A stretch of DNA of 64,000 nt from Paraspadella gotoi (GCA_051294375.1 JBJCIZ010000028.1:1032100-1096099); one strand, 5' to 3'. Counted from the stretch's first letter, positions 18,891 to 59,049 are shown. Program-made: numbers and translations. Notes: generated by a model from the sequence alone, not told the origin.

Positions 18891-21800
18891 CAACTCGATT
18901 TTCCTCGACTCTTCTCCCAACACAGAACCTGTTTCGCCGTCGACGCGGGATACAGCAGCGTCTACTGTTTGTGCAACGCCACCTTTTGCGATGCAGTTCC
19001 GTCCGTCGATTGGGAGAGCATCGGGTGAGGGCCATCGTTTGAAACCCGAATCGCGTTAAAAAAAATTTGATTTATTTTTGTTTTTTTCAATTTATTATTT
19101 TTTTATTTCATGTTCTTTTAAGAAAATTGCAAAAATGACTTATTACACGGTTTTGTATGTTTAGATTTTCCAAACAACGATTTTTGGTTAACATGTTTAA
19201 AAAAAATTTTTTGTAAATTTGTCATCATGTTATTGTTTATTTATTTACATGTATTTTGTATTCATTATGTTTTCATTATAACTATTTATTAATTCTAATT
19301 ATTTTCTTTTAGCCGCAACACTGTCGTGTCTTTCACCTCTTCACGCGATGGCCTCAGATTCCAAAGACGAATTCTGCCTTTCGTCGAAAACAACGACAAC
19401 AACGACGACCAGAAAGACGCCGACCTTCGCATCCGGGTCAACGCCTCCCAAAAATTCCAGGTGGAATCCAAGAAAAAGTGGCGGTTTGTTGCCCCCCCCA
19501 AAAAAAAAAAAAGCCTACATCATGTTTTAAATTATATTATATTTTTAAATTATATGTATTTCTTGTAAGACGTAATTTTTGAATCCCCCTGGCATCCTCG
19601 CGCTTCGGCGGCGCCTTCACCGACGCGCGCGAGGATCAACATCCGCAGCCTCGGCAACGTCACGCGGGAAAAAGCTGCTGCGGTCTTACTTTGGGAAAGG
19701 TAGGGAAGAGGGGGGAGAATGGAGGAAGAGGAAAAAGTAGGGAATGGAAAATGGTAGAAAGGAGGGAGGGAAAAAAAAGGTAAAGAACGATGAAAGATAA
19801 GTTCGGATGAGCAGTTGATAGTTGAGAGAAAGAAGAGAAGGATAGAGGAGGAAGTAAATTTATGGGGGGGGGAAAGAAAGCAAAAAAAAAACAACAAAAC
19901 AATGGAACCGTTTCCAGATTGATCTTCTTAACGTATTGTTCGTATTGTGGCGGTATATTCACACCGCCTCACGTCCACCATCGTTCAGCCAAATCCATTG
20001 GCTCAGAGGGGGAACACACCATCCAGGCGTAGTGTTCCATCCACAGTCCTAACGACTTTCCCTCTGCGTTGGCAAAAGCGAGACCGTCCTAGGGTAACCG
20101 CGCCAGTGACTGGATGCGTCCACTGAGGGTCGGAAGCCCTAAAGCCAACAGTGAGATGCCCCATCCCAATGGGCATCACAGGCAACCCGGCTGTTGCCAT
20201 AGTATACAAATTTAAAAAAAAAATCATTTGTCATCTTTTATCCTTCCGTCCAGACGGCCTCTCCTACACCCCTCGGACGAGTCCCCATGGCATCCAGCGA
20301 CTTCTCCACTCGATGTTATTCTTACGCGGAGAAAGAGAAACGACTTCGATCCTCCACTCTTTTTCTCTCCTCGAGGAAGATCGAGAGTAAATTACATTTT
20401 CTTTTCTTTGGAGGGGGTGGGGGTGGGGCTGTGTCGGGGGCTGTGTTCGGTTTGGTCAAAGATGATTTCCACCCCCCCCCGCGTGACCCGCGTTCCATTT
20501 TTATCGACAGTGTTTTGATTTTTTTTTCTTTCTTAATTTCGATTGACAATTTTTTAGGTAATTTAAGTATTTATTAATTGAGTCCTTTAGTAGAAATCAA
20601 AACTTTAGTCTTGAAGTCTACTTTTTGGTAAAAAAAGAATTTTTACAAAAAGTTTGATTTTTATGCTTTTATTATTGCTTTTAAAATTACAATATTACTA
20701 TATAATGATAAAACAAATTCTGATATCGGTCCGCCTCGCCACGAAATGCCCTTGTTTCGCGCTAGTCGATAGATCGCGCGTTTATCAGAGTAAGAAAAAA
20801 CCGAAACAAAATAACATCGATAGATGAAAAAAAGAAAATTCCAGGGGGAAGCCGTCACGTGACCGCCTCGACCAATGGGAGCCCGGCAATCCAAGCCGGC
20901 TCCCTCCCTCATCCGGGAATAACGAAACGCCTCAATTCTTTTTTCGCGCTCATCTAGTTCGGTTGTTTCCTTACTTGATTTCTGCGTTTTTCTTTGGATC
21001 TTTTCACGATTTTCTCATATTTTCTACGTCGAAAACCCGCTCATTGGAAGTCATCAAAGTAGAGACGAACGTTCGGACAGGAGTCTAACAGCCGAAAACG
21101 TTTCGGACAGGTCTCTCAAACGTAGAGAGGACTGGAGATCCCTGGGGGCTCGAGAGGTTCAAAAGAGACCGAGCGGTCTCGCCCCCGCCAGCCTGCCCAC
21201 GACACCGGCCTTCTCCCCCTTTTACCGTGGTTTTCGGCAGCCCGATTCCGTCGGTTTAGGGACCGGCCGTACCAACCGACACTTTCCGTTGCACCGGCCG
21301 AGCGGTGGGGCTTCGTCCGAGGCGCCCTCTCTCGCTGCTCTCGGACCAATGGCGGCCGGTCTGGTCATCCCCCACTGCTCGGATACGTGACCAGAGGATG
21401 GAGTCTGTCCTTACGACGATGGCTTTCGTCACTGAACAGCTTTAGGAAGGTTTTCGACGAATTTCGCCGCCGAGTCTTCAGCGGCGATTCGACGCTTTGG
21501 GCGGTGAGTTTTTTTCCCGCCAGAGGGGTAGTGGGGTTTTAGCTCGTTTTTCAAACCGCCTCGCTCCCTCTTTTTTGTTTCTCCCTTTATTTCTTTCTTT
21601 CTTTTTTTCGAATTATTCGAATTTTGAATTTTTAGATTTTTTATTTCGTCGGATTCGATCGAAATATTTTTGTTGAAATAAAACCCGCTTTTCCCTTGCA
21701 GCTCTTGGCATTGGGGATTTCGTGGCGAGGCGGATCGATATAGAATTTTTAATTCCTTTATGGAATATAATTCTATATCGGTCCGCCTCGCCACGATCCC

Positions 21801-24800
21801 ACGCGCCCCCTTGTTTGTTCCTACCATTGTTTTTTTTCGTTAGCTTGGGCGTGGCTCTAGGAAAAGGGGGTTGGGAGAAGGAGGGGGGGGGGGTCGGGAG
21901 TTTTTTCCGGTTTAATTCTCGCGCTAATTTGTTTACGCTTACATTTTTTTTACATGTGACGTTCTGTAATCGGTCCGGTTTTTACTCTCCACTTACGCTT
22001 CGCCTCGTTTGACGACTCGATCCCTTCCATGCTGTTTCGACTCCAGTTAGGCGGCTCCCCCCTCAGTTCGGGCGCCCGCCTTACGCGACCCGTCACCACG
22101 TCTCAGCCTCTACCCAGCGTCACGATCCCACACAGTGCCGGAATCCCGGTACGCAGTACTCCTCCATTTCGGCGGAGGAGGGAGAAGTTTGTCTTCGGAT
22201 GCCGTACGTCGCGGTTTCGACGGCTCCCTGCCCTCACAGCAGGCGACGCCGGTTTCCAGGTTCGTTTGGTGGCTTTTTTTCTTGCAGCGCTTCGGGGAAG
22301 TCGGTGCTTCCTCACGGCCGACTGGAACTCGCTGGGCACGCCCAGGGATCGCTGTATACGCCACCTTGGATCGACGTCGCTTCTCCTCGGAGTTCTACCG
22401 CTCCCGAACGCCGGACACGCTGCCTCATCCGCTCTATTTCGAGTCGGCGTTTTTCCAACAAGAAATACGCGGCTTCTCTCCGCTTCCCCTTTTCGCGTGC
22501 GATGCAGCGATAGAAACGGCGCTACGCGCATGCCATCCTTTAACAGCTGTCGATGGCTGCACGGAATCAAAGGAGGCTCTCCGTTCCGGCTCTCCAGAAA
22601 TGGAGGTCAGCGCTGATGCGTTGACGCCCTTGGGCGCCACCGCTTCGCCGACGCGGCCTATTTTCAAGCGGCGTCCCTCAAACCTTTCGGTCGGCGAGTT
22701 CCGCCCGCCAGTTTCCCGCTGTGGGCGCCGCAAGGATCTCTCGCGCCACGCTTCTCGCTCGCGCCCACCGCATCTTCCTTTTTGGTTATCCAGGAGCGCA
22801 GGTGGAGTCGGCGCTCAACTTGACGCCTTCTACGAAACAGTCGCTCCGCGCAAACCGCTGCCGACAAGCGCCCTCGGTTTCCCGCTCGAACAGTCTTTCC
22901 TTCAAGCGCAGTGGACAAAGAAGTCTGTTCCCCGCAAACGTCGGCGAGTCTGGGAAAGGGCCGGGACTCGCGTCCGCGCGAATGACTCGAAAACGCCTTC
23001 CCTCCGCGTCGCCGCCAGTCGTCCGGACCGCCCAGGTTTTAGGCCTGGATCGCCCATGGACGTCGAGTCTCGACACCGGACTTCTTCACGCCGGCGCTTC
23101 CTTCCGGAAGCCCCCGTCGGAGGTCTCTTCGTCTCTTTCAAGAGGACGAAGCTCCGGTTGGCAGACGTCACCCATTATCGAAACTTCTCGGGGATGCCAT
23201 CTCGAGGGGCGAAGCAGTTCCAGCACGCTTCCTTTCCTCTCGGACGATGACACACATCTTTGGGGACCGAGACGCCTTGGTTCCGACGCGGAGATTGCGG
23301 CGGTTTGGAGAAAGAACGCCTTCGAGGTAGTCCCGGTTTTCTCCGGCTTTCTTTTCCAAGCTTTCCTCGTTACGATAGTAAGATGGACAGGCTTGGCGCC
23401 GATTTTGAACTTTAAAAAGGCCAATTTCTCGTTCCCTTCGCCGCCTTATTTCCGGAATGGAAGGAGCCCCGGACGTTCGCAAGGATGTCTTCGACGAGGG
23501 TTTGGGGTGCCTCGATAGCACCTTCGAGATGCTTATCTCCATCTTCCGATCCACGAGGATCGTCGGATTTTTTGCCGCTTCATTGGAAGGGCCGCATCTC
23601 GAAGTCCTTCCATTCGGACCTCTCGACAGGCCCTTGGCTTTTCACCAAGTTGACGAGACCCTTCGTGCAAGTGGCTCGCCAACAGGGGATTCGATTGCTC
23701 TTTATTTAGTCCGACATCTTTGATCCTGGGATCTTCGGCGGACGATTGTCGACGAGCCACTCGTGTTAGGCGGTGTTGTGCTATCTCAAAGGAGGCGTTG
23801 GGTTCCATTCATCCACCTTCAGAGGTCGAGCCTGCCTCCATCTCAGAGATTCGATCTCCTCGTTTCGCTTGCGGAGACACCTCTTCCCATTCCCATCTGC
23901 GCTCCCGGAGATGAAGATTTTCGACTCTTCGCTCTCTTCGCGGATGAAATCTCGTCATACGTCGTCACCACTGTGCCCGTCAAGCCTTCAGCTTCTAGCC
24001 TTTCGACGGCGGCGTCTTGGCAGTTCGCTGCTGCGTTGCCGGTCTCTCGAGGATTCAACGAGACGTCAATCGCCGTCCTACAGTCGGAGAAGGATTCTCG
24101 ACCGCGTCGTTTCCTCTTGCCGCGCGATGGAAGGAGCTGCGGTGGATCGCAGCCCTTTCTTCTCCAGACCAGTGCTTCAGCCTCCGATCCGAGACCTCCT
24201 CCCGGAGGGTTCGCAACGCCTGGACGGTGACAGACGGATGCTTCGTCGCCAGGGATAGAGTTTCTCCTTCAGGCCAGCTGTTCGAAGGGAAAACCTGGTC
24301 GACTGCGGATGTTCCCTCTCCTTTTCAATGCTGACGGAGTTCACAATTTCGAGGATCTCCTCCAACGATTCGGAGGCTTCCGTCCTCGGCGTGTCCTCCT
24401 TGGAAGACGGACAGCCTCGTCTCTCTCACCTGCCTTCGTCAGGGGTCGCACAGGCTTCAAGGAGTCCATCTCTCTTCGGAGGAGATTCTCATCACTCGGC
24501 CCGCGGCGGTCGGGACCCGCAAGGTGGCGGAACTCTGGGGAACCCCTTCCGAGGGTTGCCCATCAGAAATGGTCGACATATTCGGTCCCCCCAGCATCGA
24601 TCTTGTTCGCGACTCCCCCGGTCCGGCTCAGGCTTCCAACGTTTTTTTCGCCTGAAGGCGGCGACGCTGGAGGCCGGACCGGGGATAGACCGCCTTGGCG
24701 CAAGCAGGTCTTCGACCTGGCCATATCCCATTCTTCCCCCTCTTCTGTGATGATGGTGCGTCCGCAAGTTGGAGAAGGCAGAGGCGCCCTTTCTCGCGTG

Positions 24801-27800
24801 ATCACCCCCTTTGGCCGGCTCAGATGTGGTTTCAGACCCCCCCCTTTTTTTCCTTCGGATCTGGACGCGAGTGCGCTTCCGGCGCCGAAGTACCTCGGTC
24901 GTCGACTTCGCTGTCCGGACTCCGCCTCACGCACAGAGGATCGCTTCAGGCTCGTCACTCTGGAGGTTTTTTAGGCGGTGCCACAACTCTCCGACAGTCG
25001 ACGACTCCTTCTCCGGTCACCGTCGACGGCTGGAATGGAGGCTCTACACAGAGGAGCACTACGCCAGAGCTTGGAATGCTCCTTCTGCGAACTTCCCTTC
25101 AGGATGGAGAGGTCGAGGATCTCAAGCCTCTCGGAGGATGTCTACGATCTCTCCTTTTCTATGTGCGAGAAGGCCTCGTCGTAGACAACCACGACTCAAC
25201 CAACACAGATCGGCCCATCTCAGTTCTCTTTCCCCCCTGCACCGATGACGGCGACCGATTGGAGAGCTTCTTTGGACTCCGGCGCCTTCTCAAAGGGACG
25301 TTTTCGAGAGGACGCCCCTCCCTCACGTCGGACTTTCCCCACGTGAATGCGGCCATCCGGTTTACGCCATTTCTCGACCGGCGCCACTCTCCGGTCGCGC
25401 CGGAGGATCTTCTACGACGCTCGCCCTTCTCGTCGCTTTAGGTCAGCTCGTCGCCCTTCCAGCAGATCGTCTCTCTTCGTCGCGACGCGGGCTAATCCTT
25501 TCCTTAGCGGCAAGATCAGTATTCGTCTGGTTCCATCAGACGCTCTCGAAGACGGACAGGGTCGGACCACAATGGGGTCCGCGTTCCGGCTCGATCGGCT
25601 GCCGCTCTCAGATCGATGCCGGTTTAGGCGCTGCGCCAATTGGCTTCTTCTTCCGTCGCGGATTGGCGCCCGCCGCACGATTTTCTTTTTGCGCCCGCGC
25701 CGCTTTTCGCCATCTCTCGACGCAGCGTTTTCGCCTCCCTCTCCAAGGAGCTCTCTTGGAGGCGGAACGTTTCCGCGTCCTCCAGGGGTCCGAGCGCGCT
25801 ATGGCGGTCTGGACGTCTTTGCCCGCGCGGAGTGGATCTTGGCGTCATCCTTCGCGCGGGAGATTGGTCTGGCCGCGCAGACCTTCTTCCTTTCTACTGC
25901 AGCGGACGTCGCGTGGGGCGCCCCTCCGGTTCTTCTAGGACTTTGAGAGCGATTCGATTCTCCGCGGCATGAGGGAGAGGCCGGCTTGGGATTGCCGGCT
26001 CCCATGGTCACGGCCGGTCACGTTGACGGCTTCCCACTGGATTTTTTTATTTCATCTATCGATGTTATTTGTTCGTTTTCTTACTCTGATAAACGCGCGA
26101 TCTATCAGACTAGCCGCGAACAAAAGGGCATTTTCGTGGCGAGGCGCGACCCGATATAGAATTAGGATCCATAAAAGGACATTAAAAATTTTTTAAATCC
26201 AATTTAACTTTTTTGATGGTTCTGATTGACGCATTAAAAAGTAATTGAAAAAACTATAAACTACTAACTTTCAAAAATTTTTTATGGTTTTCTTGCGTCA
26301 AAATTTAAGAAAAAGTAATAAAAATTATCGAAACAATGATGATGATGAATGATGATTATACAAATAGTTTTTTCAATTTTTCACCACTTTATGATTCAAA
26401 CCTGAATCTGATCTTAAAAAAAAAAAATCTAAAAATTTTTTAGCCTTCCCTATTATAAATATAAAACTATTAAAAAAATTAATATATGGAGTAATATTAA
26501 AATTTTTTGTCTATTCAATTTTTAAAAAAAAATTCTAAATTTTCGTTTGAGCACCTGGGTGCTTAATTCAAATTTCTTAACCACCTTACTGAATTAGGCT
26601 CCCCCTACCTTTAGTAAACACAGGACGGGACAAATTACCTCTTGTTATTTGCAAGTTTCAGAACAGACCGCCACTACAGGTGGGTTAGACGTCCCGTCCC
26701 GCTTACGAGCATTGACACTAATGGGGCCCCGAGACCGCTTGGTGGGAAGAGAAGAATTCTCGCTCTTAGCGGGTGGCGAAAGTGAATGTGGGGGGGGGGG
26801 TTTGATGATTAACTTTACCGATGAACCCTTTTTTTTTCTCTCAGACTAAAGATTCCATTCATTATTCGAGCACAAAATCTGAGCGAGAGAGAAATCAAAC
26901 TCATCGCCAGCCCTTGGTCGCCGCCCGATTGGATGAAGTCCAACGGCCATTGCTCCGGTGAGGAGAAAGCCTTCGTTCTTTATTCTCTTTTGGTTCATTC
27001 ATATAATATTTTTTTAGTTTATTTATTTATTCAATTGTTCCTTCTTTTATTTATTCATTCGATGATACATTAAATATTTTCATTAATTCATTCAAATTTT
27101 TATAATTTTTTTTTTCATTTATAAATCCACTCATTACTTTCCGCATTCATTATTTCTAATCTTCATTCATTCATTTCCCCCCCCCCCAAGGCTACGGGCG
27201 CATCAAGGGCGACCCCGACAGCCTCGGCGACGAGGGTCGCTACTACAAGAGTTGGGCCAAGTACTTCGTCCGCTTCCTCGAAGAGTACGATCGAAGGAAC
27301 GTCTCCTTCTGGGGAATCACGGCGCAGAACGAACCCACCGACGGATACATTCCATTCTTTAGGTTGGTTGAAGACGACGACGACGACGACACGCGGGTCG
27401 CCGATGACACGATTAACAACGCAACTGTTTTTAGTTCACAACTTCTCACAGATATGAGCATGACAGAATATATTTTTTTTGCCTCTGTGATTGATTGAAT
27501 GTCTGACCTTTTTAACTTCCACAATCATTTCACCATTATAGTACGTATACTACTGGAGCTTCTAATTTAAAGACTCTTTTTTGGAGGACGGCGAGGACGG
27601 CCTACATGGTGACAATTTTACAAGCGCCGGTAAAAAAGCGCTGTCATTTGCAAACCAGTGGTTATTTCACTGATTTTAAAATTTAGTTGAGTAGAAAATA
27701 TTAAAGTCATTTATGTGTTCAAATTTTATATTGATCAGTTAAGATATGCCTTGGCAATGAGTGGAGAAAGTTGGCTTGTCAAATCGGGTTTCATTTTCCA

Positions 27801-32903: not shown

Positions 32904-33039
32904 AACCAGTTTTCATTTTGGTCGTGTCTAATTGATAGACACCTACCCCTCTCCCCCTATCGTCTTAATTTTTTTGTCCCATTGTCAATATAGATTTATA
33001 CTTTTCCGACGCTGCTTCAGACTCGTATTGTCTCTTGGT

Positions 33040-36263: not shown

Positions 36264-36319
36264 CTATGAAAAATAAACCGTTGTTCACAAATTCATATTA
36301 AATTTTTTGTAAAATTAAA

Positions 36320-40168: not shown

Positions 40169-41956
40169 TAAAGATAACCGTTGTCGTCGTCCTTTCTCTG
40201 GATTCCGGATCCGAGTCTCCTCTCCCGGGAATTATGGGGCCGGAAATGTCATGACCCTTGGTGGAAGGCCCCATGGCGATGGGTCAGAACCTGAAAACAG
40301 ACGACGAGGATTGAAAACCCACAAAAAAAATTATTAACTTTCAAAATTGCCCTATTTCTGTTCCTAATCTCTGACCTGAGAAATAAACTTAATTTTGACT
40401 ACTTCTACTACTACAACCATCACAAACTAACATCTGCAATAACGACAACCAAAACAAGAAAGACCACTATCCGCACTTAGTCTAGGTTATAAATTTAGGT
40501 TGGGAATTAGTGTTAGGGATAAAGGATTATCGTTAAAGATAAATACGGCGAAGTAAAGGATTTATGGCTACCATGACTTCACTGTTATTAGATATATTTT
40601 CACGACAGAAAACGAAATGTTGAAACATTAAACATTGCGCTTCAGCAATCAGAAAGTCAAAAGCTTTTTCACAACCACAATGACAGCCTTTTTTAAATTT
40701 TATAGTTTTTTATCTCGCCAGACGGGCGAGATGAAGGATCGCCTCTGCTTCTTTGTGACCGGAGTCGTCGTCACCGTCACGTTTCTTTGCCATCTCAAAT
40801 TGTAAAAGTGTGTAAAAGGCTGTCCACTGGACAGTGTCCAGCTTCTCTCTATCTCTTTTAATTATATGTCGCTCTCTCTCTCTCTCTCTCTTTTTCTGTC
40901 GCTGCTTCTTCTGATTCGTCTGATTCGTCTGATCGGCGACTCGGGTAAAATCGGCATTAGTCCACTGAGCTACTGAGGCGCTGCGAAGGAAATGGCTTTA
41001 ATCCATCTGTTGTGATAGGACCACCAGAGTATCTTTTTCGGGCTGACGACCGGTTTGTGCCGGTCAAGTTGAGCAAAAAGAGCAAGAAAAAAAAAAAATC
41101 CGCCGGATTTTTTAAGACAAAAAAGGATCTTTTGTCCATTTTTTGACGTAAAGTAGTTATCTTTGGGGATCGATCAAGGAGAACCTCATGGTCAGGGTCA
41201 GAGTTGAAGCGTAAGCAAAATTATGATATTTGTCACCACTATTGAATATTGATATTCTGTCACTACTAATTTTTAGGTACACCGGATACGAAGACATTGG
41301 TATCCAACTAAATAAAAAAAAATCAAATGAAACTATTGCTGGCGTTTGCCTTCAGAGAAATTACTATCCTTCTGTAGTCCCAAAATCGAATTGTACCTTG
41401 CAGTCTCGAAAAACGCTTGTTGAATAACGACATGTGAGAACGGAGAGTGATCAAGGGGGTGACAGGGAACGTCACAGCGTGGCAGAATGTCTCGGAACAA
41501 CCATGGCATTGGATAGATCATGGGCAGCCGTGCATTGACAGTCTGAGCACCCTGGAATCTGCACTGTATCGTAATTACTAATTAGGAGGAATCACATCAA
41601 TGATCAATAACCATTAACCAGAACTTTATACCCATCACCTCTCCTATTATGTTATTAACGATTCACAATAGCTGAAGGAGGAAATAAATAATAAACGATC
41701 AACAACTATCAAAGAATGATCTATTAATAATCAATGCACGATCTATGAATAATCAATGAACGATTAATGAATAATTAATGAACGTATTGATCTACAGATG
41801 AATAAATGTCCGATTATAAATGAATCAACTGAAGAATAAAAGCCGATGAACGAATCCACGAAAGTTTCTTCCCGACAGACATCGTTTATCTTTTAATTTC
41901 TTTCTCTCTTTCTCTCCAGTCGAATATCTCTCTCTCTCTCTCCTTAATTTACCCTA

Positions 41957-42006
<50 letters not shown>

Positions 42007-43589: not shown

Positions 43590-43905
43590 GAGAGAGGGTC
43601 GCCATACCTCTTTGACTGTGAATAGCCCCAACACTTAGTGTGCCCAGTGGGTCCGGGAGACTTTTCCGTCAGTTGCCTTGCTTTCAGGAACTTTGGATCC
43701 GGTGGAAGGCTTGCTACTGGTGGTTTAACCGGCCGTCACTCTTTTTGCAAGGACAGTTCTGACCAGGGCTAGAGCCCGTGTCCATTGGGTTCGGAGATGA
43801 AGCATTAACCCAGTACGCTATTAAGTCGCTGATGTAAGGAACAGTTGTATCTAACGGGGTCACACCCCTCAAATGTGATCCCTCATGATGATACAGGGAG
43901 GGATG
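43590..43905 (-). mobile_element. tRNA-headed twister-ribozyme repeat, divergent family member
   Basis: Minus strand CTGTTCCTTACATCAGCGACTTAA TAGCGTACTGG (A box) GTTAATGC...GGCTCTAGCCC (B-box-like), alignable to the 58856 unit head, followed by twister 43752-43676. Confidence 0.62.
43676..43752 (-). ncRNA. Type-P5 twister ribozyme (partly decayed)
   Basis: CCTTGC AAAAA GAGT GA CGG CCGGT TAA ACC ACC ... CCGGA TCCAAAGT TCCTG AAA GCAAGG; T2 compensated AC/GT, P2 compensated A-U, one T1 and one P4 mismatch. Confidence 0.6.
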
Positions 43906-43910
43906 GAGAT

Positions 43911-47800: not shown

Positions 47801-50800
47801 ACTGGATTCCTCTTACATGGGATTCTTCCCACGCTGGATTCCTCCCCATGGGATTCCTCCCCGCGAAATTCCTCCCACGTGGGATTCCTCCCCAAGGATG
47901 GTCGTGGTATTCCTCCCACACGGGATTTCTCCCAACTGGATTCCACCCACACGGGTTTCCTCCCCATGGAATTCCTCCCACACGGGTTTCTTCCCACATG
48001 AGATTCCTCCCCATATAATTCCTCCCATACAGGATTCCTCCCACACAGGATTCCTTCCAAAATGGGATTCCTCCCATGTAGGATTCCTACCATGGGGGAT
48101 TCCTCCCAACCGAGATTCTTTCCACACAGGATTCCTCCCACGCAAGATTCCTCCCACGCAGTGTGGGAGGAATCCTACATGGGAGGAATTCCGTGTGGGA
48201 GGAATCCCGTGGAATGAATCCCGAGTGGAAGGAATTTTGTGTGGGAGGAATACTGTGTGGGAGGAATCCCATGTGGGAGGAATCCTGCATGGGAGGAATC
48301 CCGCGTGGGAGGAATCCCGCATGGGAGGAATCCCGACTGGGGGGAATCCTGCGTGGGAGGAAATCCATGGGGAGGAATCCCGTGTGGGAGGAATCCCGTG
48401 TGGGCGGAATTCTTTTGGGAGGAATTCCATGTGGAGGAATTCCTTGGAAGAATCCCGTGTGGGAGCAATTCCATGGAGAGGAATCCCTTGGGGAGGAATC
48501 CTGTGAGGGAGGAATCCCACGTGGGAGGAATCCTGCATGGGTGGAATCCCGTTGGGAGGAATCCCACTGGAACCGTGTACCTGTACTCCCATGTGAATTT
48601 TTTTATCTAAAAATAAATCTCTTAATAAAAAAAAATTTTGTTTGTCAGGCCCGATGTGGCTTCGCTCAGGCTTCCCAGATTTGCGATCCTGGCAAAACCA
48701 TTTAAAAAACAAATCCGCTGATAATAATTTTACGCAATTATTGAGGTAAAACAAGAATCTTAAAGTTTCAATGACTTTTTTAAATACCCTTTTTGATTTG
48801 TGACAGATTGTACTCTCCGAGTGGAGGATCTTGGAAACCTAAAAATTGCATAGCCGCAGGCAAAGTTGCTATAATCGTTCCATTCAGGTAAAAAAAGTCA
48901 GCAAGAAAAACATAGAAAATAGTAAAAAAAAATCTTTAAAGAATAGGATCGAGCCTCCCTTCAATGATAACCAAATATTGATGCGATGATAACCAAAGGA
49001 TTGATGCGATGATAACCAAATGATGCGATGATAACCAAATATTGATGCGATGATAACCAATAATTGATGCGATGATAACCAAATGATCGATGAGATGATA
49101 ACCAAATGATTGATGTGATAATAACCAAATGGTTGATGCGATGATAGTCATTCATTGATGTGATGATAATCATTCATTGATACGATGATAGTCATTCATT
49201 GATGCGATGATAGTCATTCATTGATGCAATAAATCATTCATCATAAATAAAACAAATAAATGCGTGTATAAGTGAAAGAGAGAGAGAGAGAAAGAAAGAG
49301 AGAGAAAAAGAGAATAAATCCACGAAAATCTGGGATGTAAATTTGGGATTTTGCATTGAGAAAAAATCGCGGAATAAATGGCAATAAAGTTTTTAAAAGG
49401 AAAAAATAATCAATTTTTTAAAAAAAACGATCACACAAGAGATCGTACAGAGAGAGAGAGAGACAGAAAGAGAAAGACAGACAGAGACAAGAGAGAAAGC
49501 TGGACAGCCGCTGGAAAACAGCTGAACAATCACTGCAGAGTAAGGCGTAGTAAAATTTCTAAATTTAACTTTAATTNNNNNNNNNNNNNNNNNNNNNNNN
49601 NNNNNNNNNNNNNNNNNNNNNNNNNNNNNNNNNNNNNNNNNNNNNNNNNNNNNNNNNNNNNNNNNNNNNNNNNNNNNTAAGAAAAGCTTATTTTGAAATT
49701 TTTCGATTTTATAAGATAGTACTATATATAATATAGCCTACTGCGAAAATTAAAAAAAACATAAAATTAATTTTTTTTACAAATTAATATTCACTGATGG
49801 TATGTTGTTCATAATTAACTTTTAGAATTTTCGTATGTAACTTTCACTACGCCTCTACTGCAGAGCCTGAACTCGTTTTTAAAAGGTTCAGAAAGGCAGC
49901 AACTGACAAAAATAGGAAGAAAATCTATATATAATTTAAAGAAATAAAAGAAAGGAAAAAATGTTACAATTGTTTACAATTGGAAATTTTTACAATTTTT
50001 TCCAATCATAGCTTGTAAAAGATTTTATTTTTATTTGTATCAAAATTAAGATATAGCTTCTCATAAAAAGGTATTTGATTTCCCTGTTTATTAAAGATTT
50101 TTAAAAAAATTATGAATTTCATCTGCAATATTATATACTGCAATATGTAAATTAGATTAAAGCATTTTTATATACTAATTTGGATATTATAATGAGTACT
50201 ATAATCTGCATATTGCCAGTAAATCAATAATGAAGTGGAAATTCAAACAAAAAATACTTGAATCCAAAAGTAATATGAAAAATTTCAGAGCTATTTCAAG
50301 ATGAGAAGCCATATCTAAATTTGTAACTTACTATGATCGCACACTTTTATAAAACTTCATTGTAATTTATAATAATTTTTATTTAAAAACAAACGGTAAG
50401 TCCCAGCCAAAACTATAAAAGCGTAGTAGTTTTTATATAAAAATGCGTAACGCCGCCGACGACGACGACGACGTCCCAAGAAGCTGAACCGGCTTCTCCG
50501 GTAGGCTCGATAAAAATGCTACAATTGTTTTTGTTTATAGCAATCATTTTTAATTTTTTGCCAATCCAATTTTTCAGAGATTTAAAGCGGCCTCACGACT
50601 AATTAGTAATTAGTAATTACCTAAGCAGGCTTAAACATCATCCAAATCGGTGTCTTTCAATTGAGTTAGCAAAGCCAGACAGTATTATATAGCATAACCG
50701 GGCCGGTAGTAAGAGACCGGCACTGGAGATACTAATGCCCTCCTCACGAGCATCACAAACAAACTAATCTGCTTGCTGTTATTACTGTTTATACTGAAAC

Positions 50801-51034
50801 AAGTTTGAGCAAACAATGTCGGATCTGCCTCGATAATTAATTAATTAATTAATTAATCGATTAATTAATTAATTAATTTTAATATGTAATAATTAATTTT
50901 AAATTTATATTCAACTTATCATCATCGATGTCCTTAAAATTGGGTTAGGACAGTTATTAAATATGTTTTGTTTACATTTTATCAAAACAAACAAATATCC
51001 TCTATTTCATTTTATGTCTCCTTCTCTCTCTCTC

Positions 51035-51095
<61 letters not shown>

Positions 51096-54076
51096 TTTTA
51101 TGCAATTGCGACGATCCTTATGCTTTTAGGATTTTTTTAACTTGTATCATTTTTTCCACTTGCATCATTTTTTCAACTTGCATAATTTTTTTAAATTGCA
51201 TCATTTTTTCACATTAATTAATTAATTAATTAAAACATTTATTAGTAATCATAAACTAGTAATCATAAATAATAAAGATTCAAGTAAATGTGACTTATGT
51301 TTTTTCCATTTAAACTCATCTCCACTGTCACAATTCCGTCAAAACTTTATATCTAGCTTCTTCACACACTTTCCTACCCGCTCACAAAATTTCATCTCAA
51401 TCTATTATGGGTTAAAATAAGTAAAAAGATTCAAGTAAATGCGACTCATATTTTTTTCATTTAAACTCATTTCCACTCGTACGTTTCCACCGAAACTTTA
51501 TAGCAAGCATCGTAACACATTTTTCTACCCACACAAAAAAATTGAACTCAATCTGAATTTAGTGATGACCCTGAATGAGAGTGGTGTTGTTTGTAAGAAA
51601 GTAAATTAGTATATGGTAAAAGGCTTGCTGCATGGTCTGGCTGATGCATCATTTTTTATTTTATTGCAAGTTAAACTAGTGTTAAACTTATAATAAAACT
51701 TATTAACTACAGTTCAAGTTTATTATACTATAGTTTAAACAAAATGATTGATTAGTTCAGAACAAATCAATCAAAACCTTCTTTCTTAAGTCAAACACAA
51801 AAAAGGGAAAAAATTGAGGAAAAAACTGTATGAACCTAGTTTGATTGAATCTTAATATAAAAAAAGTAATAATTATGAGTAAATGAAAAAAAACTGGCAG
51901 GTTTAGTCTTATGTCGTATTTTATGGAAGAATTTCCAAAGTACAATAGAAAAATATGAAGCAAATTATGTACAATGAGCATTTAATTTGTGTTCACTTAT
52001 TTATAAAGGTTTGATATAAAAGAAAACAAGTTTTATTCAGCATTAACAACGATTTTATTAATAATAAAGGTTTCGACTCTAGCTTTTATGAGTCTTCTTT
52101 AGCGTTTGACTCAACAGATTTCGGTTTCACAAAGATTCCCTTCCAACAAAGAATTGAAGAAAAGATAGTGGTCAGAAATGAGGATCGGTTGAGGTGAGAA
52201 TAGGGAAGAAGATAGAGTGAATAAATTTGAAACTAGTAAAAGAGATAGAGATAGAGAGAAAGTGAGAGGGAAAAATTATTATATTAAGCAATATACAACA
52301 AAGATAGATTTAAATTAAGCAAACTTAATTTTAAACTAAAGAAATAATAATAATAAAGGTAAATAAGTTAGATAATGAGATGTAAGTAAAAATGAAATAG
52401 AAAAATAAGTGGTTAGGGAAGGATAAGATAATAGTAAGGGAAAATAAGTAAAGAAAAGAGCTCAAAATTGCCAAATGTAGTGATTTTTCCCTCTCTCTCT
52501 TACCAGTTTCAAAATTTATTCACTCTCTCTCCTTCCCTATCCTCACCTTCTCTTGTCTTCCCATCTATCTTTTCTTAATTCTTTGTTGGAAACTTTCTTT
52601 CTCTCTCTCTCTCTCTCTCACCAACTCAATGTTTGTGAAACCAAAATCTGTAGAGTCAAACCGCTGATGAAGACTCGAAAAAGCAAGAGTCAAAATATAT
52701 CCGACCTTATTGTTGATAAAATTGTTATTGCTAATTAATTCATTTTTTCCATTAAATAAAAAAAATAATGAAAAAAAAGATTAAACACAACGTTTTGACT
52801 ATATTAACCTTGTATGCATTTAATAGTACCTCACCACTTTTTAAAATATTGACTATTTTAAAAGATAGTCATATGATTAAATTTTTATATAATCACCTGC
52901 CAGCACACCTATAACATTTCATAATACATATTATCCAACATTCCTATCAAATATTATTTAAAATTATGTAGCATAAAACGAGTTATGAACATTTAAAATT
53001 TAAGTCAGATAGACTGACAGAACGACAAACCTACCCACCAACTTAGAAAATAATGATTTGAAATTGCTCCCCCAAGCACTCGCACCCAGCTAAAAAGTTT
53101 ACTGATAACTTTATCTAATAACTAACATCTAATAACTTTAAAATAAATATTTTAAATTCCATTTCTCAAGCTTCAATTTTTGGCAAAAATAAGGATTGAC
53201 TATTACTTGGAAGCTTTGGAGAGTTCCTTTCCGATCAAGTTTTTAGGGTTTAGACAGTTTTAATGTCTTTTAAAGACCAAAAAGAACCTATTAAAATGAG
53301 TCATGAAATTTCATATTTAAGCCATAAAGAGCTCAAAAATTCTAAAAAGTTATGAAGAATATAATTATAAATTTTAATCATTTTTTATTTTCTTTTAGTT
53401 TTTAAAGTTTAATATTGTGTATTTTGATTTTATTTTCAGGAAGTACTGCTAAATATTATTTTTTTAATATTTATTCTTCACAAAATTTAGGAATAACTTT
53501 AGTAAGTATTTTATCAAAAAACTAATGATCATCTTTATATTTTATATTATATAATATTATATTATTAATAAAATTTATTAAAAATAAAGGTTTAATAAAA
53601 ATATAAAGTCTACATCAAAAATATATTTCAAAATCAAATCAAGTATTGATTTAATCATTATTTTATTTAAAAAATCCTTTAAATTAATTTCACATATAAG
53701 ATTACGATCAAAGAAAAACCGCAAAAGTACTCGATCACTTGGAAACTCTGGAGAGTTCCTTTCCGGTCAAGTTTTTTCAGGTTTATCAGTCCCAATGTCT
53801 TCTACAGACAAAAAGAACCTAATAAAATGAGTCGTGACCCTTCATCTAGTGTAATTGAAAATTTGGGTAACTCTATTGATCAATTAAGATAATTTGGTCA
53901 ACCGGCATAATTTGGTCAACTGGCATAATTTTATCAACTGGCCTAATTTGGTCAACTGCATAATTTGGTCAACAGGCATAATTTGGTCAACTTGCAGAAC
54001 TTGATCAACTTGCAGAATTTGGTCAACTGGCATAATTTGGTCAACTGGTATATTTTTGTCAATTGGCATAATTAGG

Positions 54077-54107
<31 letters not shown>

Positions 54108-57100
54108 GAGAGAGATAGAGAGAGAGAAACTTTAAAAAATTCAAATAAATGTCTTTTGGTTTTCTAATTTGAACTCTTTTCCACTCCTACGATTCCATCA
54201 AAAAATTTATATCTAGCTTTATCACATACTTTCCTACCCACACACAAAATTCAATTTCGATTTATCTATCCAATTTTTAATAAACATAATAATTATGAGT
54301 AAATTTAAGTAAAAATACTTCAAGTAAATATGACTTTTGTTTTTTTCTATTTTAACTCATTTCCACTCGCACGATTCCATCGAAACTTTATATCCAGCTC
54401 AATCACACACTTTCCTACCATCATCAAAATTTCAAGTCAATTGCCCTATCCACTCATGAGCAATTGGCGTTCAAATAGTAAAATATATTTTTTTGTTTTT
54501 TCCATTTAAACCAATTTCCACTCGCACGATTCCTCGAAACTTCATATCCATCTCAATCACACAGTTTCCTACCCACACACAAAATTTCATTCCAATCCAT
54601 CCATCCAATCACGAGTAATTGGAGTTTTTTGCTAAGGTGGGACGGACGGACGGACGGACGGACGGACGGACAGACAGACGGACGGACATCGTTTTTTTGC
54701 ATAATTAATCATAATTCGATGTTTTGACATGATATAAGTGTGTGCCCGACAATATTGAGGGGCGGACCGATGGACCGACAAAGTGAATTANNNNNNNNNN
54801 NNNNNNNNNNNNNNNTCCATCCAATTATGATTAATTAGAGTACTTCATGGTTAAAATAAGTAAAAATATTTTAGTAAATGCGACTTATGTTTTTCCACTT
54901 AAACTCATTTCCACTCACACGATTCCGTCGAAACTTTATATCCAGCTTTATCACACACTTTCCTACCCACACACAAAATTTCATTCCAATCCAACCAGCC
55001 AATCACGAGTTATTGGATCTTTTTGCTAGGTGGGACGGATGGACGGATTGATTGACTGATTAAGTAATTATTAATAATTAATTGACTAATTGATTAATTA
55101 ACTGATTAATAATTTGATTTATTAATACATCCTTAATATAAAAGGAAAAGAATCATAATCAATTAGTGAAAAGGTTTTTGTTTTTTTCTATTTAAACTCA
55201 TTCCACTCAAAAGATTCATCGAAACTTGATTTCCTGTTCAATCACACACTTTTCTACTCACAAAAATTCAGGTCAATCTATAATTAAGTGGTAATAAGCT
55301 AACTTGGTCAACTTGCATAATTTGGTCAACTGATATAATTTGGTAAACTGACATAACTTGCGTTAAACTGACATAATTTGGTCAACTGACATAATTTGGT
55401 TAACTGGACATAATTTGTCAACTGACATAATTTGATCAATAGAGTTACCCAAATTTTTAATTACACCCGATGAAGGGTCACGACTCATTTTATTAGGTTC
55501 TTTTTTGTCTGTAGAAGACATTGGGACTGATAAACCTGAAAAAACTTGACCGGAAAGGAACTCTCCAGAGTTTCCAAGTGATCGAGTACTTTTGCGGGTT
55601 TTTCTTGATCGTAATCTTATATGTGAAATTAATATAAAGGATTTTTTAAATAAAATAATGATTTAATCAATACTTGATTGGTTTTTAAATATATTTTTGC
55701 TGTAGACTTTATATTTTTTATTAAACCTTTTATTTTTAATAAATTTTATTAATAATATAATATTATATAATATAAAAATATAAAGATGATTATTAGATTT
55801 TTGATAAAATACTTACTAAAAGTTATTCCTAAATTTTTGAAGAATAAATATTAAAAAAAATAATATTTAGCAGTACTTACTAAAATAAAATCAAAATACA
55901 CAATATTAAACTTTAAAAACTAAAAAAAAAATGGTTAAAATTAGTAAATATCAAAAGTGTTTGGAAAATGGCCCAATTATTACTTTTTGCCATGAGTAAA
56001 TTGTTTTCTCCAAGAAATTGTAAACTTTTATTGTTTTTATAACAGATTCAAATCTAAAACAGTATTTCATAAAAAATTAAAGTAAAAATTTTGAATCTAC
56101 TTGGTCTTGCCTTTTATTAGATTGCTAGATTGCATATATTATTGATCAAGTAATGTTTTTTGTAATATGTATCAAACATAATAAACTAAGGGAAAATATT
56201 ATATTTAATTAGTATGGCATTAGTATAGATTTATAAATGGCCAAAATAAATAGGAAGTATATGTAAAAATTTATCCTGGAAATAGTTAGGCAAACAAAAC
56301 TTTTCTTCCTTCTGTTTAGATATTTTGACTCTTTGTGTGGAAATTTAGTGATGACCCTGAATGAGAGTGTGTTGTTTGTAAGAAAGTAAATTAGTATATG
56401 GTAAAAGGCTTGCTGCATGGTCTGGCTGATGCATCATTTTTTATTTTATTGCAAGTCTAAACTAGTGTTAAACTTATAATAAAACTTATTAACTACAGTT
56501 CAAGTTTATTATACTATAGTTTAAACAGAATGATTGATTAGTTCAGAACAAATCAATCAAAACCTTCTTTCTTAAGTCAAACACAAAAAAGGGAAAAAAT
56601 GAGGAAAAAACTGTATGAACCTAGTTTGATTGAATCTTAATATAAAAAAAGTAATAATTATGAGTAAATGAAAAAAAACTGGCAGGTTTAGTCTTATGTC
56701 GTTTTTATGGAAGAATTTCCAAAGTACAATAGAAAAATATGAAGCAAATTATGTACAATGAGCATTTAATTTGTGTTCACTTATTTATAAAGGTTTGATA
56801 TAAAAGAAAACAAGTTTTATTCAGCATTAACAACGATTTTATTAATAATAAAGGTTTCGACTCTAGCTTTTATGAGTCTTCTTTAGCGGTTTGACTCAAC
56901 AGATTTCGGTTTCACAAAGATTCCCTTCCAACAAAGAATTGAAGAAAAGATAGTGGTCAGAAATGAGGATCGGTTGAGGTGAGAATAGGGAAGAAGATAG
57001 AGTGAATAAATTTGAAACTAGTAAAAGAGATAGAGATAGAGAGAAAGTGAGAGGGAAAAATTATTATATTAAGCAATATACAACAAAGATAGATTTAAAT

Positions 57101-57857
57101 TAAGCAAACTTAATTTTAAACTAAAGAAATAATAATAATAAAGGTAAATAAGTTAGATAATGAGATGTAAGTAAAAATGAAAATAGAAAAATAAGTGGTT
57201 AGGGAAGGATAAGATAATAGTAAGGGAAATAAAGTAAAGAAAAGAGCTCAAAATTGCCAAATGTAGTGATTTTTCCCTCTCTCTCTTACCAGTTTTCAAA
57301 ATTTATTCACTCTCTCTCCTTCCCTATCCTCACCTTCTCTTGTCTTCCCATCATCCTTTTCTTAATTCTTTGTTGGAAACTCTTCTTTCTCTCTCTCTCT
57401 CTCTCTCACCAACTCAATGTTTGTGAAACCAAAATCTGTAGAGTCAAACCGCTGATGAAGACTCGAAAAAGCAAGAGTCAAAATATATCCGACCTTTATT
57501 GTTGATAAAATTGTTATTGCTAATTAATTCATTTTCCATTAAATAAAAAAATATAATCTCTCTCTTTTTAGAGTCGGGATCTGCTGATAAGCAGATCCGA
57601 CTAATAACCATGAAAAATTCAAAATAAAACGCATTTAATTTATTCAAAAGTTATGGTTCAAAGCTTAAATATGACAAGCCTGGAAAAAAGTGGTAGCTTT
57701 GACTAATTCTTTCCTCCCATAATTCCACTCAGAGAACGGGAACAAAATCTGTATATTTTCCTCAAATTTCTTCATCCTCTTCTACAACGACAACAACTTG
57801 ACTATCAAATTTTTGTTGTCGAACAAAGCGGAGACAAAGCAAAGCCATTTAACAAAG
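44860..57857 (+). CDS. Beta-1,4-galactosyl/N-acetylgalactosaminyltransferase (GT7, bre-4-like), 5' six exons; gene continues beyond
   Basis: Phase-consistent exons 44860-44929, 44997-45098, 45273-45476, 48649-48745, 48807-48887, 57733-57857: type II membrane anchor, Thr-rich stem, CEISSDLGPM, GGSWKPKNCIAAGKVAIIVPFR-EREQNLYIFLKFLHPLLQRQQLDYQIFVVEQSGDKAKPFNK. Missed by the ORF track. Confidence 0.9.
45736..47089 (+). mobile_element. DINE-1/HINE-like family 2 copy with duplicated 3' end and nested tRNA-head insert
   Basis: ATCGTCGCAATCGCTTTGGGTTTGCGACGAT 5' hairpin, near-identity to 36734-37379, 3' block repeated (~46580-46685 and ~46980-47089). Confidence 0.65.
46431..46558 (+). mobile_element. 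tRNA-head fragment of the twister family ending at the predicted cleavage site
   Basis: GGTGGA..TCCACC hairpin, A box TGGTGCCAGAGG (46469-46480), B box GGTTCAAGCCC (46513-46523), then TAGCAG TTTA GTGG GA CGG GGCGCT; absent from the paralogous HINE at 36734. Confidence 0.55.
47755..48585. repeat. Foldback array of ~15-nt GGATTCCTCCCACAC units inverted about ~48160
   Basis: Left half (GGATTCCTCCCAYAC)n, right half (GTGTGGGAGGAATCC)n; accounts for the repetitive ORFs at 47719-48754. Confidence 0.85.
48960..49230 (+). repeat. ~20-nt minisatellite (ATGATAACCAAATATTGATGCG); reverse-complement array at ~62120-62360
   Basis: Direct inspection of units and of the CATCAATGAATGACTATCATCG array at 62120-62360. 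Confidence 0.75.
51556..57550 (+). repeat. ~1.2-kb direct duplication (51556-52765 vs 56342-57550)
   Basis: Both start AATTTAGTGATGACCCTGAATGAGAGT and are near-identical, including the inverted hammerhead-like pair. Confidence 0.8.
53395..55925. mobile_element. Element with ~490-bp inverted arms enclosing an 18-nt minisatellite, interrupted by HINE repeats
   Basis: 53395-53885 is the reverse complement of ~55432-55925; CATAATTTGGTCAACTGG arrays at 53886-54080 and 55300-55435 are in the same orientation. Confidence 0.7.
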
Positions 57858-58968
57858 GTATGTATCAGTCTTTTAAATTAACATTTTCAACAATAATTTT
57901 AAGATCTGACTGTATTTCGTATACATTATACAAGGTGGCACACGACAACTAGCTGCTAGAAAAAAATCGTCATTTGCAAACTTTTGAAGATTTTTTTAAT
58001 CTGAAAGATTCTTTCTGTAGTAAAAACCAAAATCATAAATATATTTAAATTTTATATTGACTATTATTTTGATTTGACTTGGCAATGAGCGGAGAAAAGT
58101 TTCTTTCAAAATCGAATTTCATTTTAAAACTTTTTTTTCTTCAATCTGTTTTAAATTAAAAAAAATACTTAAAAAGGTATCAATATTACTATTAAAAATA
58201 CTGTAATATAAAAATAAGCCTATCCAGCTTTATATCAAAAAAGGTATTCAAAACTAAGATAATTATTGCAAACAATATCGGATCTGCCCACGATCATTAG
58301 CGGTAATTAATTAATTAATACAAACTATATAAACTAAAATAATAATTTAATTAATAAATTAATTAATTTGATCCGAAATGTTTGTTTTTAGGTCTTTTGA
58401 TCACTGACCACGATAAAAGCAACAACGACGATGATGGCGACGACGACAATAATGCCGATAACGATTGACTTGATTGATTGATTAATTAATTAATTCATTT
58501 ATAAAAAAATTAATTGATTGGATAATTAATTAATCGATTAATTGACCAAGAAATTAATTAATTTATTAATTAACAGATTAATTAATTGATTAATTAATAC
58601 ATCTTTAATTTATATTTAATATAGAAAGAAAAAGAAGCATAATCAAATAGTTAATCAGGTTTTTTGTTTTTTTCATTTAAACTCATTTCCACTCAGATGA
58701 TTCCATCGAAACTTGATTTCCAGCTTAATCACACACTTTCACACACTTTTACCCACATACAAAATTTCAAGTCAATCGCCCCGTCCATTTAAACTCATTT
58801 CCACGTGCACGATTCCAAGCAAGGGTAAATCTTTCATTTGTCATTGGTGAGAGTTTGGTGGTCCTATCACCTCAGATGGATTAAAGCTGTTTCTTTCGCA
58901 GCGCCTCAGTGGCTCAGTGGACTAATGCACCATCCCAATGTGCGTCCCTGGTTCGAGCCCTGAGGTTG

Positions 58969-59049
58969 TCATGTAGAAAGTGGGATGGACCGGGTAACCC
59001 GCCTGTAGGCATAGGCCTACTGCCAGATCCAAAGCTCTGGACTACATGA
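58969..59049 (+). ncRNA. Type-P5 twister ribozyme, unit 1
   Basis: TCATGTAG(P5) AAA GTGG(P2') GA TGG ACCGGG TAA CCC(P2) GCC T GTAGGC-ATAG-GCCTAC(P3) TG CCAGA TCCAAAGC TCTGG(P4) A CTACATGA(P5'); T1 CCA/TGG, T2 GC/GC; predicted cleavage U58995/A58996. Confidence 0.8.

What the first reader, a model, noticed from the sequence alone, without database searches (positions are those of the whole stretch)
20068..59049. P1 stem replaced by a short palindrome in every copy: possible dimer-dependent twister
Between the T1 triplet and the scissile UAA the copies read TCCTAGGG (20087), GACGTC (26688-26693, minus), ATTGCG (degenerate, ~35448), CCGGT (43728-43732, minus), GGCGCT (46553) and ACCGGG (58989, 59399). 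The sequence changes but self-complementarity is kept, and the linkers are too short for a stable hairpin. This parallels the palindromic stem III of minimal hammerheads that cleave as dimers. Inference: P1 forms between two twisters of a multimeric transcript, so only tandem or rolling-circle RNAs are processed. Alternative: P1-less mini-twisters are known to be active, so the palindrome might be dispensable.
Basis: partly seen in the sequence, partly recalled or inferred. Interest (0 to 1): 0.85.

Follow-up and report, generated by a model that had tools for sequence, protein, structure and literature searches.

The report
Twister ribozymes with shrunken palindromic stem
A highly repeated jumping element in an animal genome carries predicted self-cutting 'twister' RNAs whose first stem has shrunk to a 5-8 letter, mostly self-complementary linker, which likely lets neighbouring copies pair and cut better as a pair, although single copies may well cut too.

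Summary
The twisters are real, though Rfam misses them. Three intact type-P5 cores (20068-20149, 58970-59048, 59380-59457) pass a strict descriptor (3 hits vs 0.06 by chance), and P5, T1 and P3 covary. Three sites are decayed copies; 46553 is a truncated fragment. Most copies follow a tRNA-like Pol III head. The 58.9-kb family is highly repeated and exists as a head-to-tail unit of about 456 nt, like Schistosoma Sm-alpha hammerhead SINEs. P1 is 5-8 nt against 20 nt in the Rfam consensus and 12-30 nt in 8 prokaryotic or phage type-P5 cores. 'Every copy' is overstated. The inner four bases are self-complementary in 4 of 5 independent copies (naive p 1e-4 to 2e-3), 35448 fails, and the 46553 linker may not be homologous. 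Pairing between tandem copies is plausible. Strict dimer dependence is doubtful: P1 is dispensable in published assays, these linkers fit a one- or two-pair tetraloop, cis and swapped folds are about equal in predicted energy, and most copies look solitary. Verdict: new variant of a known kind; dimer assistance is untested.

The parts
20068..20149 (+). Intact type-P5 twister core: P5 20068-73/20144-49, P2' 20078-81, GA, T1' 20084-86, UAA 20095-97 (predicted cut 20095|20096), P2 20098-101, T2 20102-03, P3 20104-08/20121-25, L4 20130-37, 3-bp P4
   Evidence: T1 is CCG/CGG here against TGG/CCA at 58989 (compensatory)
20087..20094 (+). 8-nt P1 linker, fully self-complementary with terminal G-U; also a formal 2-bp stem plus CUAG tetraloop
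19999..20009 (+). A-box-like start of a diverged tRNA-like head (one mismatch to the 58910 A box; no clear B box)
26655..26704 (-). Decayed copy: P2', GA, T1', linker 26688-26693 (perfect 6-nt palindrome), UAA, P2; decayed L4 at 26655-62, no good P4
35429..35508 (+). Decayed copy: P5 35429-33/35504-08, non-palindromic linker 35448-53, CGA in place of UAA, decayed L4 35487-95
43676..43776 (-). Decayed but full-topology copy: B-box-like 43766-76, P5 43747-52/43676-81, 5-nt linker 43728-32, L4 43690-97; mismatches in T1 and P2
46513..46558 (+). Truncated copy: B box, P5 5' strand, P2', GA, T1', then 6 nt that may come from the 3' tail; no UAA and no core
58856..59265 (+). First repeat unit (410 nt here; about 456 nt in contigs, so this copy lacks about 45 nt after 59093); no run of four T
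58904..58965 (+). tRNA-like head: A box 58910-20, B box 58950-60, closing stem 58904-09/58960-65
   Evidence: (z -4.0); not called by ARAGORN
58970..59048 (+). Intact type-P5 twister core: 7-bp P5, bulged 3-bp P2, T1 3/3, T2 GC/GC, P3 6 bp, P4 5 bp; linker 58989-94; predicted cut 58995|58996
   Evidence: (z -3.05)
59266..59527 (+). Second, partial unit: leader, tRNA-like head 59314-75, intact twister 59380-59457 (linker 59399-404, predicted cut 59405|59406), 3' tail from 59504
40954..41026 (-). 5' fragment of the same family (92% identity over 73 nt), broken off inside the tRNA-like head

Best explanation
These are predicted type-P5 twister ribozymes in a tRNA-headed, highly repeated non-coding retroelement, and their shrunken self-complementary P1 linker likely pairs with the linker of the next copy in a tandem transcript, which would speed cutting without being strictly required. 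Shown in sequence: the twister fold with covarying helices, the tRNA-like A/B-box head just upstream of the cut site, the absence of T4 terminators, the head-to-tail unit, and the short linker. Inferred: Pol III reads from one head through the next unit. Two cores about 410-456 nt apart can swap strands so that each active site takes UAA-P2-P3-P4 from one unit and P5-P2'-GA-T1' from the other, joined by one shared 4-8 bp P1 helix (the double-hammerhead topology). Cutting at both sites releases a unit-length RNA that a host ligase could circularise. A lone unit or circle would cut more slowly, because its linker is closed into a tight loop or invades P2/P4; this would keep the template intact for reverse transcription by an unidentified autonomous element.
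For: Descriptor: 3 hits vs 0.06 by chance. P5 is 100% paired in 4 aligned copies, with 3 of 5 pairs changed on both sides (helix 1 only). T1 changes TGG/CCA to CCG/CGG. P1 is 5-8 nt here, against 8 bp plus a 4-nt loop in Rfam Twister-P5 and 12-30 nt in all 8 distinct P5-order cores found in 223 phage, prokaryotic and metagenome loci, setting aside one tandem P1-type junction. The linker changes keep pairing: CCGG, ACGT, CC-TA-GG. A contig variant inferred from co-occurring differences of equal depth reads ATCGGT, also fully self-complementary with G-U (table 3; linkage inferred). A head-to-tail joint 59223->58856 is present in a DNA run and a second run (table 5). Genomic copies span the cut site: the window's copies do, and so do 5 of 8 listed contig pieces of run X4 (table 8), so the template RNA held an uncut or re-ligated site. 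In single-unit secondary-structure models the linker mispairs into the core, with P4' at p about 0.85 at 20087 and with P2/P2' at p 0.2-0.5 at 58989/59399 (pseudoknots not modelled). Precedents: palindromic helix III hammerheads (PMC4209133); axolotl retrozymes cutting 6-22% as monomers and much better as dimers (PMC7229834); Schistosoma Pol III hammerhead SINEs with the promoter at the 3' end of the cut unit (PMC6765202); aptamers at a closed P1 switching a type-P3 twister up to about 35-fold in cells (PMC5052635).
Against: P1 is dispensable in the mini-twister, and P1 imperfections had no effect across natural type-P1 twisters; neither tests a P1 closed into a tight loop. In the natural tandem RNA the constrained energies are -229.9 (two cis monomers) vs -229.0 kcal/mol (swapped dimer), and the unconstrained ensemble gives cis P5 about 0.85, swapped P5 about 0.14 and linker-linker pairs about 0.05; co-transcriptional folding would favour cis. 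35448 breaks the pattern and 46553 is doubtful, so n is 5. Any vanishing hairpin looks palindromic, and only the central two to four bases carry extra information. Summed contig depth on the spacer (59110-59229) is about one eighth of that on 58856-59080 in run X4 (the tool warns that this is no copy number), which suggests most copies are solitary. The 20087 copy has no partner in the window.
Confidence: 0.42

Rival explanations
1. Monomer-active mini-P1 twister: the linker is just a 1-2 bp hairpin with a tetraloop, or an unpaired tether. Each copy cuts on its own, and the palindrome is the leftover of a stem whose loop was lost.
For: P1 is dispensable. Natural P1 typically has at least two pairs, and cutting without it is possible though inefficient (PMC8501958 passage). 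C-CUAG-G is a tabulated tetraloop. 4-6 unpaired nt can span a helix end (established RNA geometry, not computed here). Cis P5 dominates the predicted ensemble.
Against: It does not explain why the loop-forming inner bases stay self-complementary through three different sequences, nor how an uncut template survives, except through alternative folds.
Confidence: 0.35
2. Strict dimer dependence: the tight linker blocks the in-line geometry, so only tandem or rolling-circle RNAs are cut.
For: Minimal Penelope hammerheads show no detectable monomer activity (PMC4209133 passage). Linker mispairing is predicted in monomers.
Against: Hammerhead helix III is part of the catalytic junction, whereas twister P1 is not needed for chemistry. 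Most copies appear solitary. No energetic preference for the dimer.
Confidence: 0.11
3. The palindrome is selected for something other than catalysis, such as a kissing-loop contact between RNAs during reverse transcription, or a DNA-level site, while cutting is monomeric.
For: A CCGG core flanked by unpaired purines resembles kissing-loop dimer signals (recalled, not tested). It would explain the retained self-complementarity with a dispensable P1.
Against: No direct evidence. The position exactly at P1 is more simply explained by P1 pairing.
Confidence: 0.08
4. The cores are inactive relics, or a structured SINE body that no longer cuts.
For: No Rfam hit even at E 10. 4 of 7 sites are decayed or truncated. 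Genomic copies are not bounded by the cut site.
Against: All conserved core residues and both pseudoknots are intact in three copies of two divergent families, with compensatory changes. About 94% of tested natural twisters cut (PMC11662667 abstract).
Confidence: 0.04

Closest known systems
Type-P5 twister ribozyme (Rfam RF02684)
   Same: Order P5-P2'-GA-T1'-P1-UAA-P2-GC-P3-P4/L4-P5'; both pseudoknots; L4 ending AAGC.
   Different: P1 is 5-8 nt instead of 8 bp plus a tetraloop. P2 is 3 bp with a bulge or mismatch. T1 is CCA/TGG or CGG/CCG. Not detected by the Rfam model.
Schistosoma Perere-3 (RTE) twisters and T-variants; Rfam twister-P1 RF03160
   Same: The P3/P4 sequence of the 58989 copy resembles the Rfam P1 consensus and the S. 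mansoni examples (GCC-UGUAG...UACUGCC). Both sit in animal retroelements.
   Different: Those are type-P1, at the 5' end of an autonomous LINE, with P1 partly supplied by the target site. Here the core is permuted, internal, and behind a tRNA-like head.
Schistosoma Sm-alpha/Sj-alpha hammerhead SINE-like retroposons and metazoan non-LTR retrozymes
   Same: Non-coding repeat with one ribozyme per unit of a few hundred nt. A Pol III promoter ends up at the 3' end of the cut unit, as in Sm-alpha. Tandem and solitary copies.
   Different: The ribozyme is a twister, not a type I hammerhead. Metazoan retrozymes are described as lacking promoters. Circular RNA is not shown here.
Dimeric type I hammerheads of Penelope-like elements, newt and axolotl satellites
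   Same: A terminal helix reduced to 1-2 bp with a palindromic loop, in tandem repeats.
   Different: Different ribozyme class. Helix III is part of the hammerhead core, while twister P1 is dispensable. No Penelope ORF was found next to these copies.
tRNA-headed SINEs with RTE-derived bodies
   Same: tRNA head plus a body that resembles an RTE 5' region (PMC7245038 passages).
   Different: Copies begin about 48 nt upstream of the tRNA-like head and a tandem unit exists; no ribozyme is mentioned in that paper; the partner LINE is not identified.

Membership tests
Twister ribozyme, type P5 | L1 with (U)AA at the cut site and GA opposite | tested here: met
   3 intact copies; 35448 and 46553 fail
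Twister ribozyme, type P5 | Pseudoknots T1 (3 bp) and T2 (GC/GC) | tested here: met
   3/3 and 2/2 in 20087, 58989 and 59399, with compensatory change in T1
Twister ribozyme, type P5 | P2, P4 and L4 ending AAGC with the general-base G | tested here: met
   P2 has 3 bp with a bulge or mismatch, P4 has 3-5 bp; such imperfections are tolerated
Twister ribozyme, type P5 | Termini in P5, with P1 closed by a loop | tested here: met
   P5 of 6-7 bp covaries; P1 is closed but reduced to 5-8 nt
Twister ribozyme, type P5 | Reaches the Rfam RF02684 score | tested here: not met
   no twister hit at gathering or at E 10; the model expects an 8-bp P1
Twister ribozyme, type P5 | Site-specific self-cleavage at U|A | not testable with these tools
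   needs an in vitro assay
Sm-alpha-like SINE / non-LTR retrozyme | Highly repeated non-coding unit with one ribozyme | tested here: met
   summed contig depth 2-4e5 vs about 60-110 for single listed contigs in run X4 (not a copy number)
Sm-alpha-like SINE / non-LTR retrozyme | Head-to-tail tandem units | tested here: inconclusive
   1.5 units in the window; a go-back joint in two runs cannot tell long arrays from two repeats flanking a spacer; most copies look solitary
Sm-alpha-like SINE / non-LTR retrozyme | Internal Pol III A and B boxes upstream of the ribozyme, no T4 terminator | tested here: met
   58910-20 and 58950-60; no T4 run in 58856-59530; promoter activity untested
Sm-alpha-like SINE / non-LTR retrozyme | Type I hammerhead ribozyme | tested here: not met
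   the core is a twister; no hammerhead hit. It works like the family but is not a member
Sm-alpha-like SINE / non-LTR retrozyme | Unit-length linear and circular RNAs in cells | not testable with these tools
   only contigs were available; the joined form also exists as DNA
Dimer-activated ribozyme (double-hammerhead type) | Terminal helix of 1-2 bp with a palindromic loop | tested here: met
   4 of 5 independent copies
Dimer-activated ribozyme (double-hammerhead type) | Swapped dimer favoured over monomers | tested here: inconclusive
   within 1-2 kcal/mol, pseudoknots not modelled
Dimer-activated ribozyme (double-hammerhead type) | Monomer slow, dimer fast | not testable with these tools
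   needs kinetics

The most novel reading that the evidence does not exclude
A natural twister ribozyme that has independently evolved the double-hammerhead switch: P1 forms only between two copies, so tandem transcripts are cut at least ten times faster than single units or circles. It would define a twister-based, Pol III-driven retrozyme class in animals that current Rfam models miss.
Probability: 0.3. Interest if true: 0.82.

Novelty: new variant of a known kind. Interest (0 to 1): 0.6.

Why it matters
Twisters are known in animal retroelements only as type-P1 motifs at LINE 5' ends, in the papers I could search. A permuted twister inside a tRNA-headed tandem repeat extends the retrozyme design to a second ribozyme class, and it is invisible to Rfam, so similar elements may be undercounted. 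If the palindrome gates activity, two unrelated ribozymes reached the same solution for cutting multimers while sparing monomers. It would also give a reason why P1 is conserved in nature although dispensable in vitro, and a cheap test of that. If monomers cut freely, it is still the shortest closed P1 seen here and a compact scaffold. Nine literature searches listed no paper on a natural dimer-activated or SINE-borne type-P5 twister. The library lacks most subscription papers. The original twister alignments, the Rfam seed and the CHiTA supplement were not seen and could hold such sequences.

Tried and rejected
- Rfam at gathering and at E 10: no ribozyme hit; the 11 weak hits are unrelated. 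ARAGORN: no tRNA.
- No whole genome is held, so the genome-wide linker table could not be made. Copy number, unit structure and linker variants of the 20087 family remain unknown.
- Sequencing runs: no RNA holder listed, which says nothing on expression. Run X7 is only guessed to be RNA, and its go-back joint also stands in DNA run X9, so it is not evidence of a circle. None of the 16 listed loose ends (75 not shown) lies at the cut site.
- Family pattern in metagenome contigs: 17 hits, none passing the strict descriptor. In viral contigs: 0 hits. A CCG/CGG-type pattern gave 10 hits, none passing.
- Short-linker scans of viral and prokaryotic contigs gave mostly chance matches or type-P1 twisters. 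A gut-phage match with an 8-nt linker (L056 and kin) was rejected: T1 2/3 and no Rfam hit. L176 (P3 order, 8-nt non-palindromic linker, wobble-rich P2) is unverified.
- Pair counts: my structure string was out of register for all helices except P5, so only helix 1 is used. One search's hand-built P2 pairs were mis-indexed and redone. The 43730 strand coordinates were off and are corrected.
- Host taxon: the nearby dehydrogenase exon matches animal retinol dehydrogenases at 61% identity or less, so 'an animal' is all that can be said.
- Pairing of the head loop 58930-37 with 58981-88 as an off-switch: p about 0 in the ensemble, and it does not covary at 20087.
- Earlier scan notes: nothing relevant.
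- Lunse et al. 2017 is not held and is known here only through a review.


Full report
Setting. The window is animal DNA: microsatellite-rich, with a retinol-dehydrogenase-like exon whose closest hits are 61% identical or less. No whole genome is held. Rfam finds no ribozyme at its gathering scores or at E 10, so the twister claim had to be tested by structure.

The twisters. Reading by hand and by descriptor gives a type-P5 order: P5, an A-rich joint, P2', GA, T1', linker, UAA, P2, GC, P3, P4 with loop N-T1-AAGC, and P5'. A strict descriptor with a free linker of 3-24 nt returns exactly three hits (linkers at 20087, 58989 and 59399), against a mean of 0.06 and a maximum of 1 in 100 dinucleotide shuffles. 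The 20087 and 58989 cores share little sequence, yet every helix is kept: P5 GTTGGC/GCCAAC vs CATGTAG/CTACATG, T1 CCG/CGG vs TGG/CCA, and P3 CAGTG/CACTG vs GTAGGC/GCCTAC. A third P5, CCTTGC/GCAAGG, occurs at 43730. P5 is fully paired in the four aligned copies, with 3 of 5 pairs changed on both sides (helix 1; the rest of that call was out of register and is not used). P2 is non-standard: 3 bp with a bulge at 58989, and 3 bp plus a mismatch at 20087. P2 imperfections were tolerated in a large survey (PMC11662667, section 32 part 1 of 2). The other sites are poorer. 43730 has mismatches in T1 and P2; 35448 and 26690 keep only decayed L4 or P5 traces; all three show the CG-to-CA change at T2 expected from CpG decay. 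46553 stops before UAA, and what follows resembles the family's 3' tail, so its linker may not be P1 at all. A census found no further twister copy.

The element. The 58.9-kb cores follow a tRNA-like head with perfect A and B boxes and a closing stem. B-box-like remains precede 43730 and 46553, and an A-box-like motif precedes 20087. The window holds 1.5 units in tandem, 410 nt apart, with no T4 terminator. Contigs of four public runs laid on the first unit show a highly repeated, homogeneous family: summed depth is 2-4e5 in run X4 against about 60-110 for single listed contigs (the tool warns this is not a copy number). No linker variant reaches 2% in X4. A joint from 59223 back to 58856 appears in X9 (DNA) and X7, implying a unit of about 456 nt. 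Depth on the spacer is about one eighth of that on the head and ribozyme in X4, and many contigs leave at 59093 into a common tail, so most copies look solitary. One diverged contig carries differences that, if linked as their equal depth suggests, give ATCGGT before CAA. Copies span the cut site. This layout, with a Pol III promoter just upstream of the ribozyme, matches the Schistosoma hammerhead SINEs as reviewed in PMC6765202 (passages). The P3/P4 sequence resembles the Rfam type-P1 consensus and the S. mansoni Perere-3 twisters, which suggests origin by permutation of an RTE-type twister (inference).

The linker. The Rfam Twister-P5 consensus has an 8-bp P1 with a tetraloop. Across all 223 loci fetched from phage, prokaryotic and metagenome collections, several by patterns aimed at short linkers, the same descriptor found 8 distinct P5-order cores, all with 12-30 nt hairpins. 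It also found one junction between two abutting type-P1 twisters and one unverified P3-order match. The 5-8 nt linkers here are therefore unusual. Their inner four bases are self-complementary at 6 of 7 sites. After counting 58989/59399 once and dropping 46553, this is 4 of 5; 35448 fails. Self-duplexes are -6.1 to -11 kcal/mol and lie in the best 0.5-5.5% of GC-matched k-mers. Naive binomial p is about 1e-4 for copies and 1e-3 to 2e-3 for distinct tetramers; shared ancestry and my choice of register make the true evidence weaker. It is more than chance, but on a small sample, and not 'every copy'.

Mechanism. In a tandem transcript a swapped fold is topologically possible in which each active site is built from two units and one P1 helix is shared, as in the double hammerhead (PMC4209133 passages). 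Nearest-neighbour folding neither favours nor excludes it: -229.9 vs -229.0 kcal/mol under constraints, with the cis P5 at about 0.85 and linker-linker pairs at about 0.05 unconstrained. In single units the free linker is predicted to invade P4' or P2, which offers a route by which pairing it off could help even though P1 is not needed for chemistry; these models omit both pseudoknots, which favour the active fold. Against dependence: the env22 mini-twister cuts at nearly wild-type rate without P1 (PMC5408937 passages); P1 length, energy and imperfections did not predict cleavage among natural type-P1 twisters; and the 8-nt linker is a formal 2-bp stem with a tabulated tetraloop. Those studies used open P1 ends. 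With a closed P1, attached aptamers switch a type-P3 twister up to about 35-fold in cells (PMC5052635 passages), and S. mansoni variants differ in rate with their P1 region (PMC8501958 passages and section 19). Because genomic copies contain the uncut site, the template RNA must have been slow to cut or re-ligated, the same need that palindromic hammerheads meet in retrozymes (PMC7229834 passages; PMC7761336 passages). I put dimer-assisted cutting at 0.42, free monomer activity at 0.35, strict dependence at 0.11, another role for the palindrome at 0.08 and inactivity at 0.04.

Novelty. Nine searches (listings only, unless named above) showed no natural dimer-activated twister and no twister inside a tRNA-headed repeat. 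The only twister dimer mentioned is a crystal artefact. Passages of PMC10085705, PMC13725137, PMC6154101 and PMC7245038 added nothing closer. The original alignments, the Rfam seed and the CHiTA supplement were not seen. Each ingredient is known; their combination appears new. Verdict: new variant of a known kind, interest 0.6, with a simple decisive assay.

Noticed in passing
L101 (minus strand, 280-379); also L137, L185: Phage contigs with two type-P1 twisters directly abutting, only 6 nt between T1' of the first and UAA of the second. Such a tandem shows how a permuted core with a tiny P1 could arise.
   Followed up: partly
L016, L017/L131, L042: Phage loci with two type-P5 twisters within about 300 nt of each other.
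   Followed up: no
window 58930-58937 and 58981-58988; 20161-20168: The anticodon-like loop of the head is the exact complement of the P2'-GA-T1' strand over 8 nt. The same loop sequence caps a hairpin downstream of the 20087 twister. Not paired in the predicted ensemble.
   Followed up: partly
run X7 record 18: A 3622-nt contig at moderate depth carries a diverged twister core in its middle with unrelated flanks; possibly an autonomous or larger element of the same lineage.
   Followed up: no
window 47765-48565: Two long 16-bp minisatellite arrays in inverted orientation.
   Followed up: no
window 51265-55439 and 52393-57346: Duplicated AT-rich repeats with 151-155, 71 and 18-bp periods, and a twice-present segment near 52.4 and 57.2 kb.
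   Followed up: no
window 21000-26000: GC-rich block (about 0.6) with many overlapping open frames; the three frames scanned have no Pfam match.
   Followed up: partly
window 14168-14650 and about 15600-15730: Exons of a short-chain dehydrogenase (retinol dehydrogenase-like) host gene (the second stretch judged from sequence only).
   Followed up: partly
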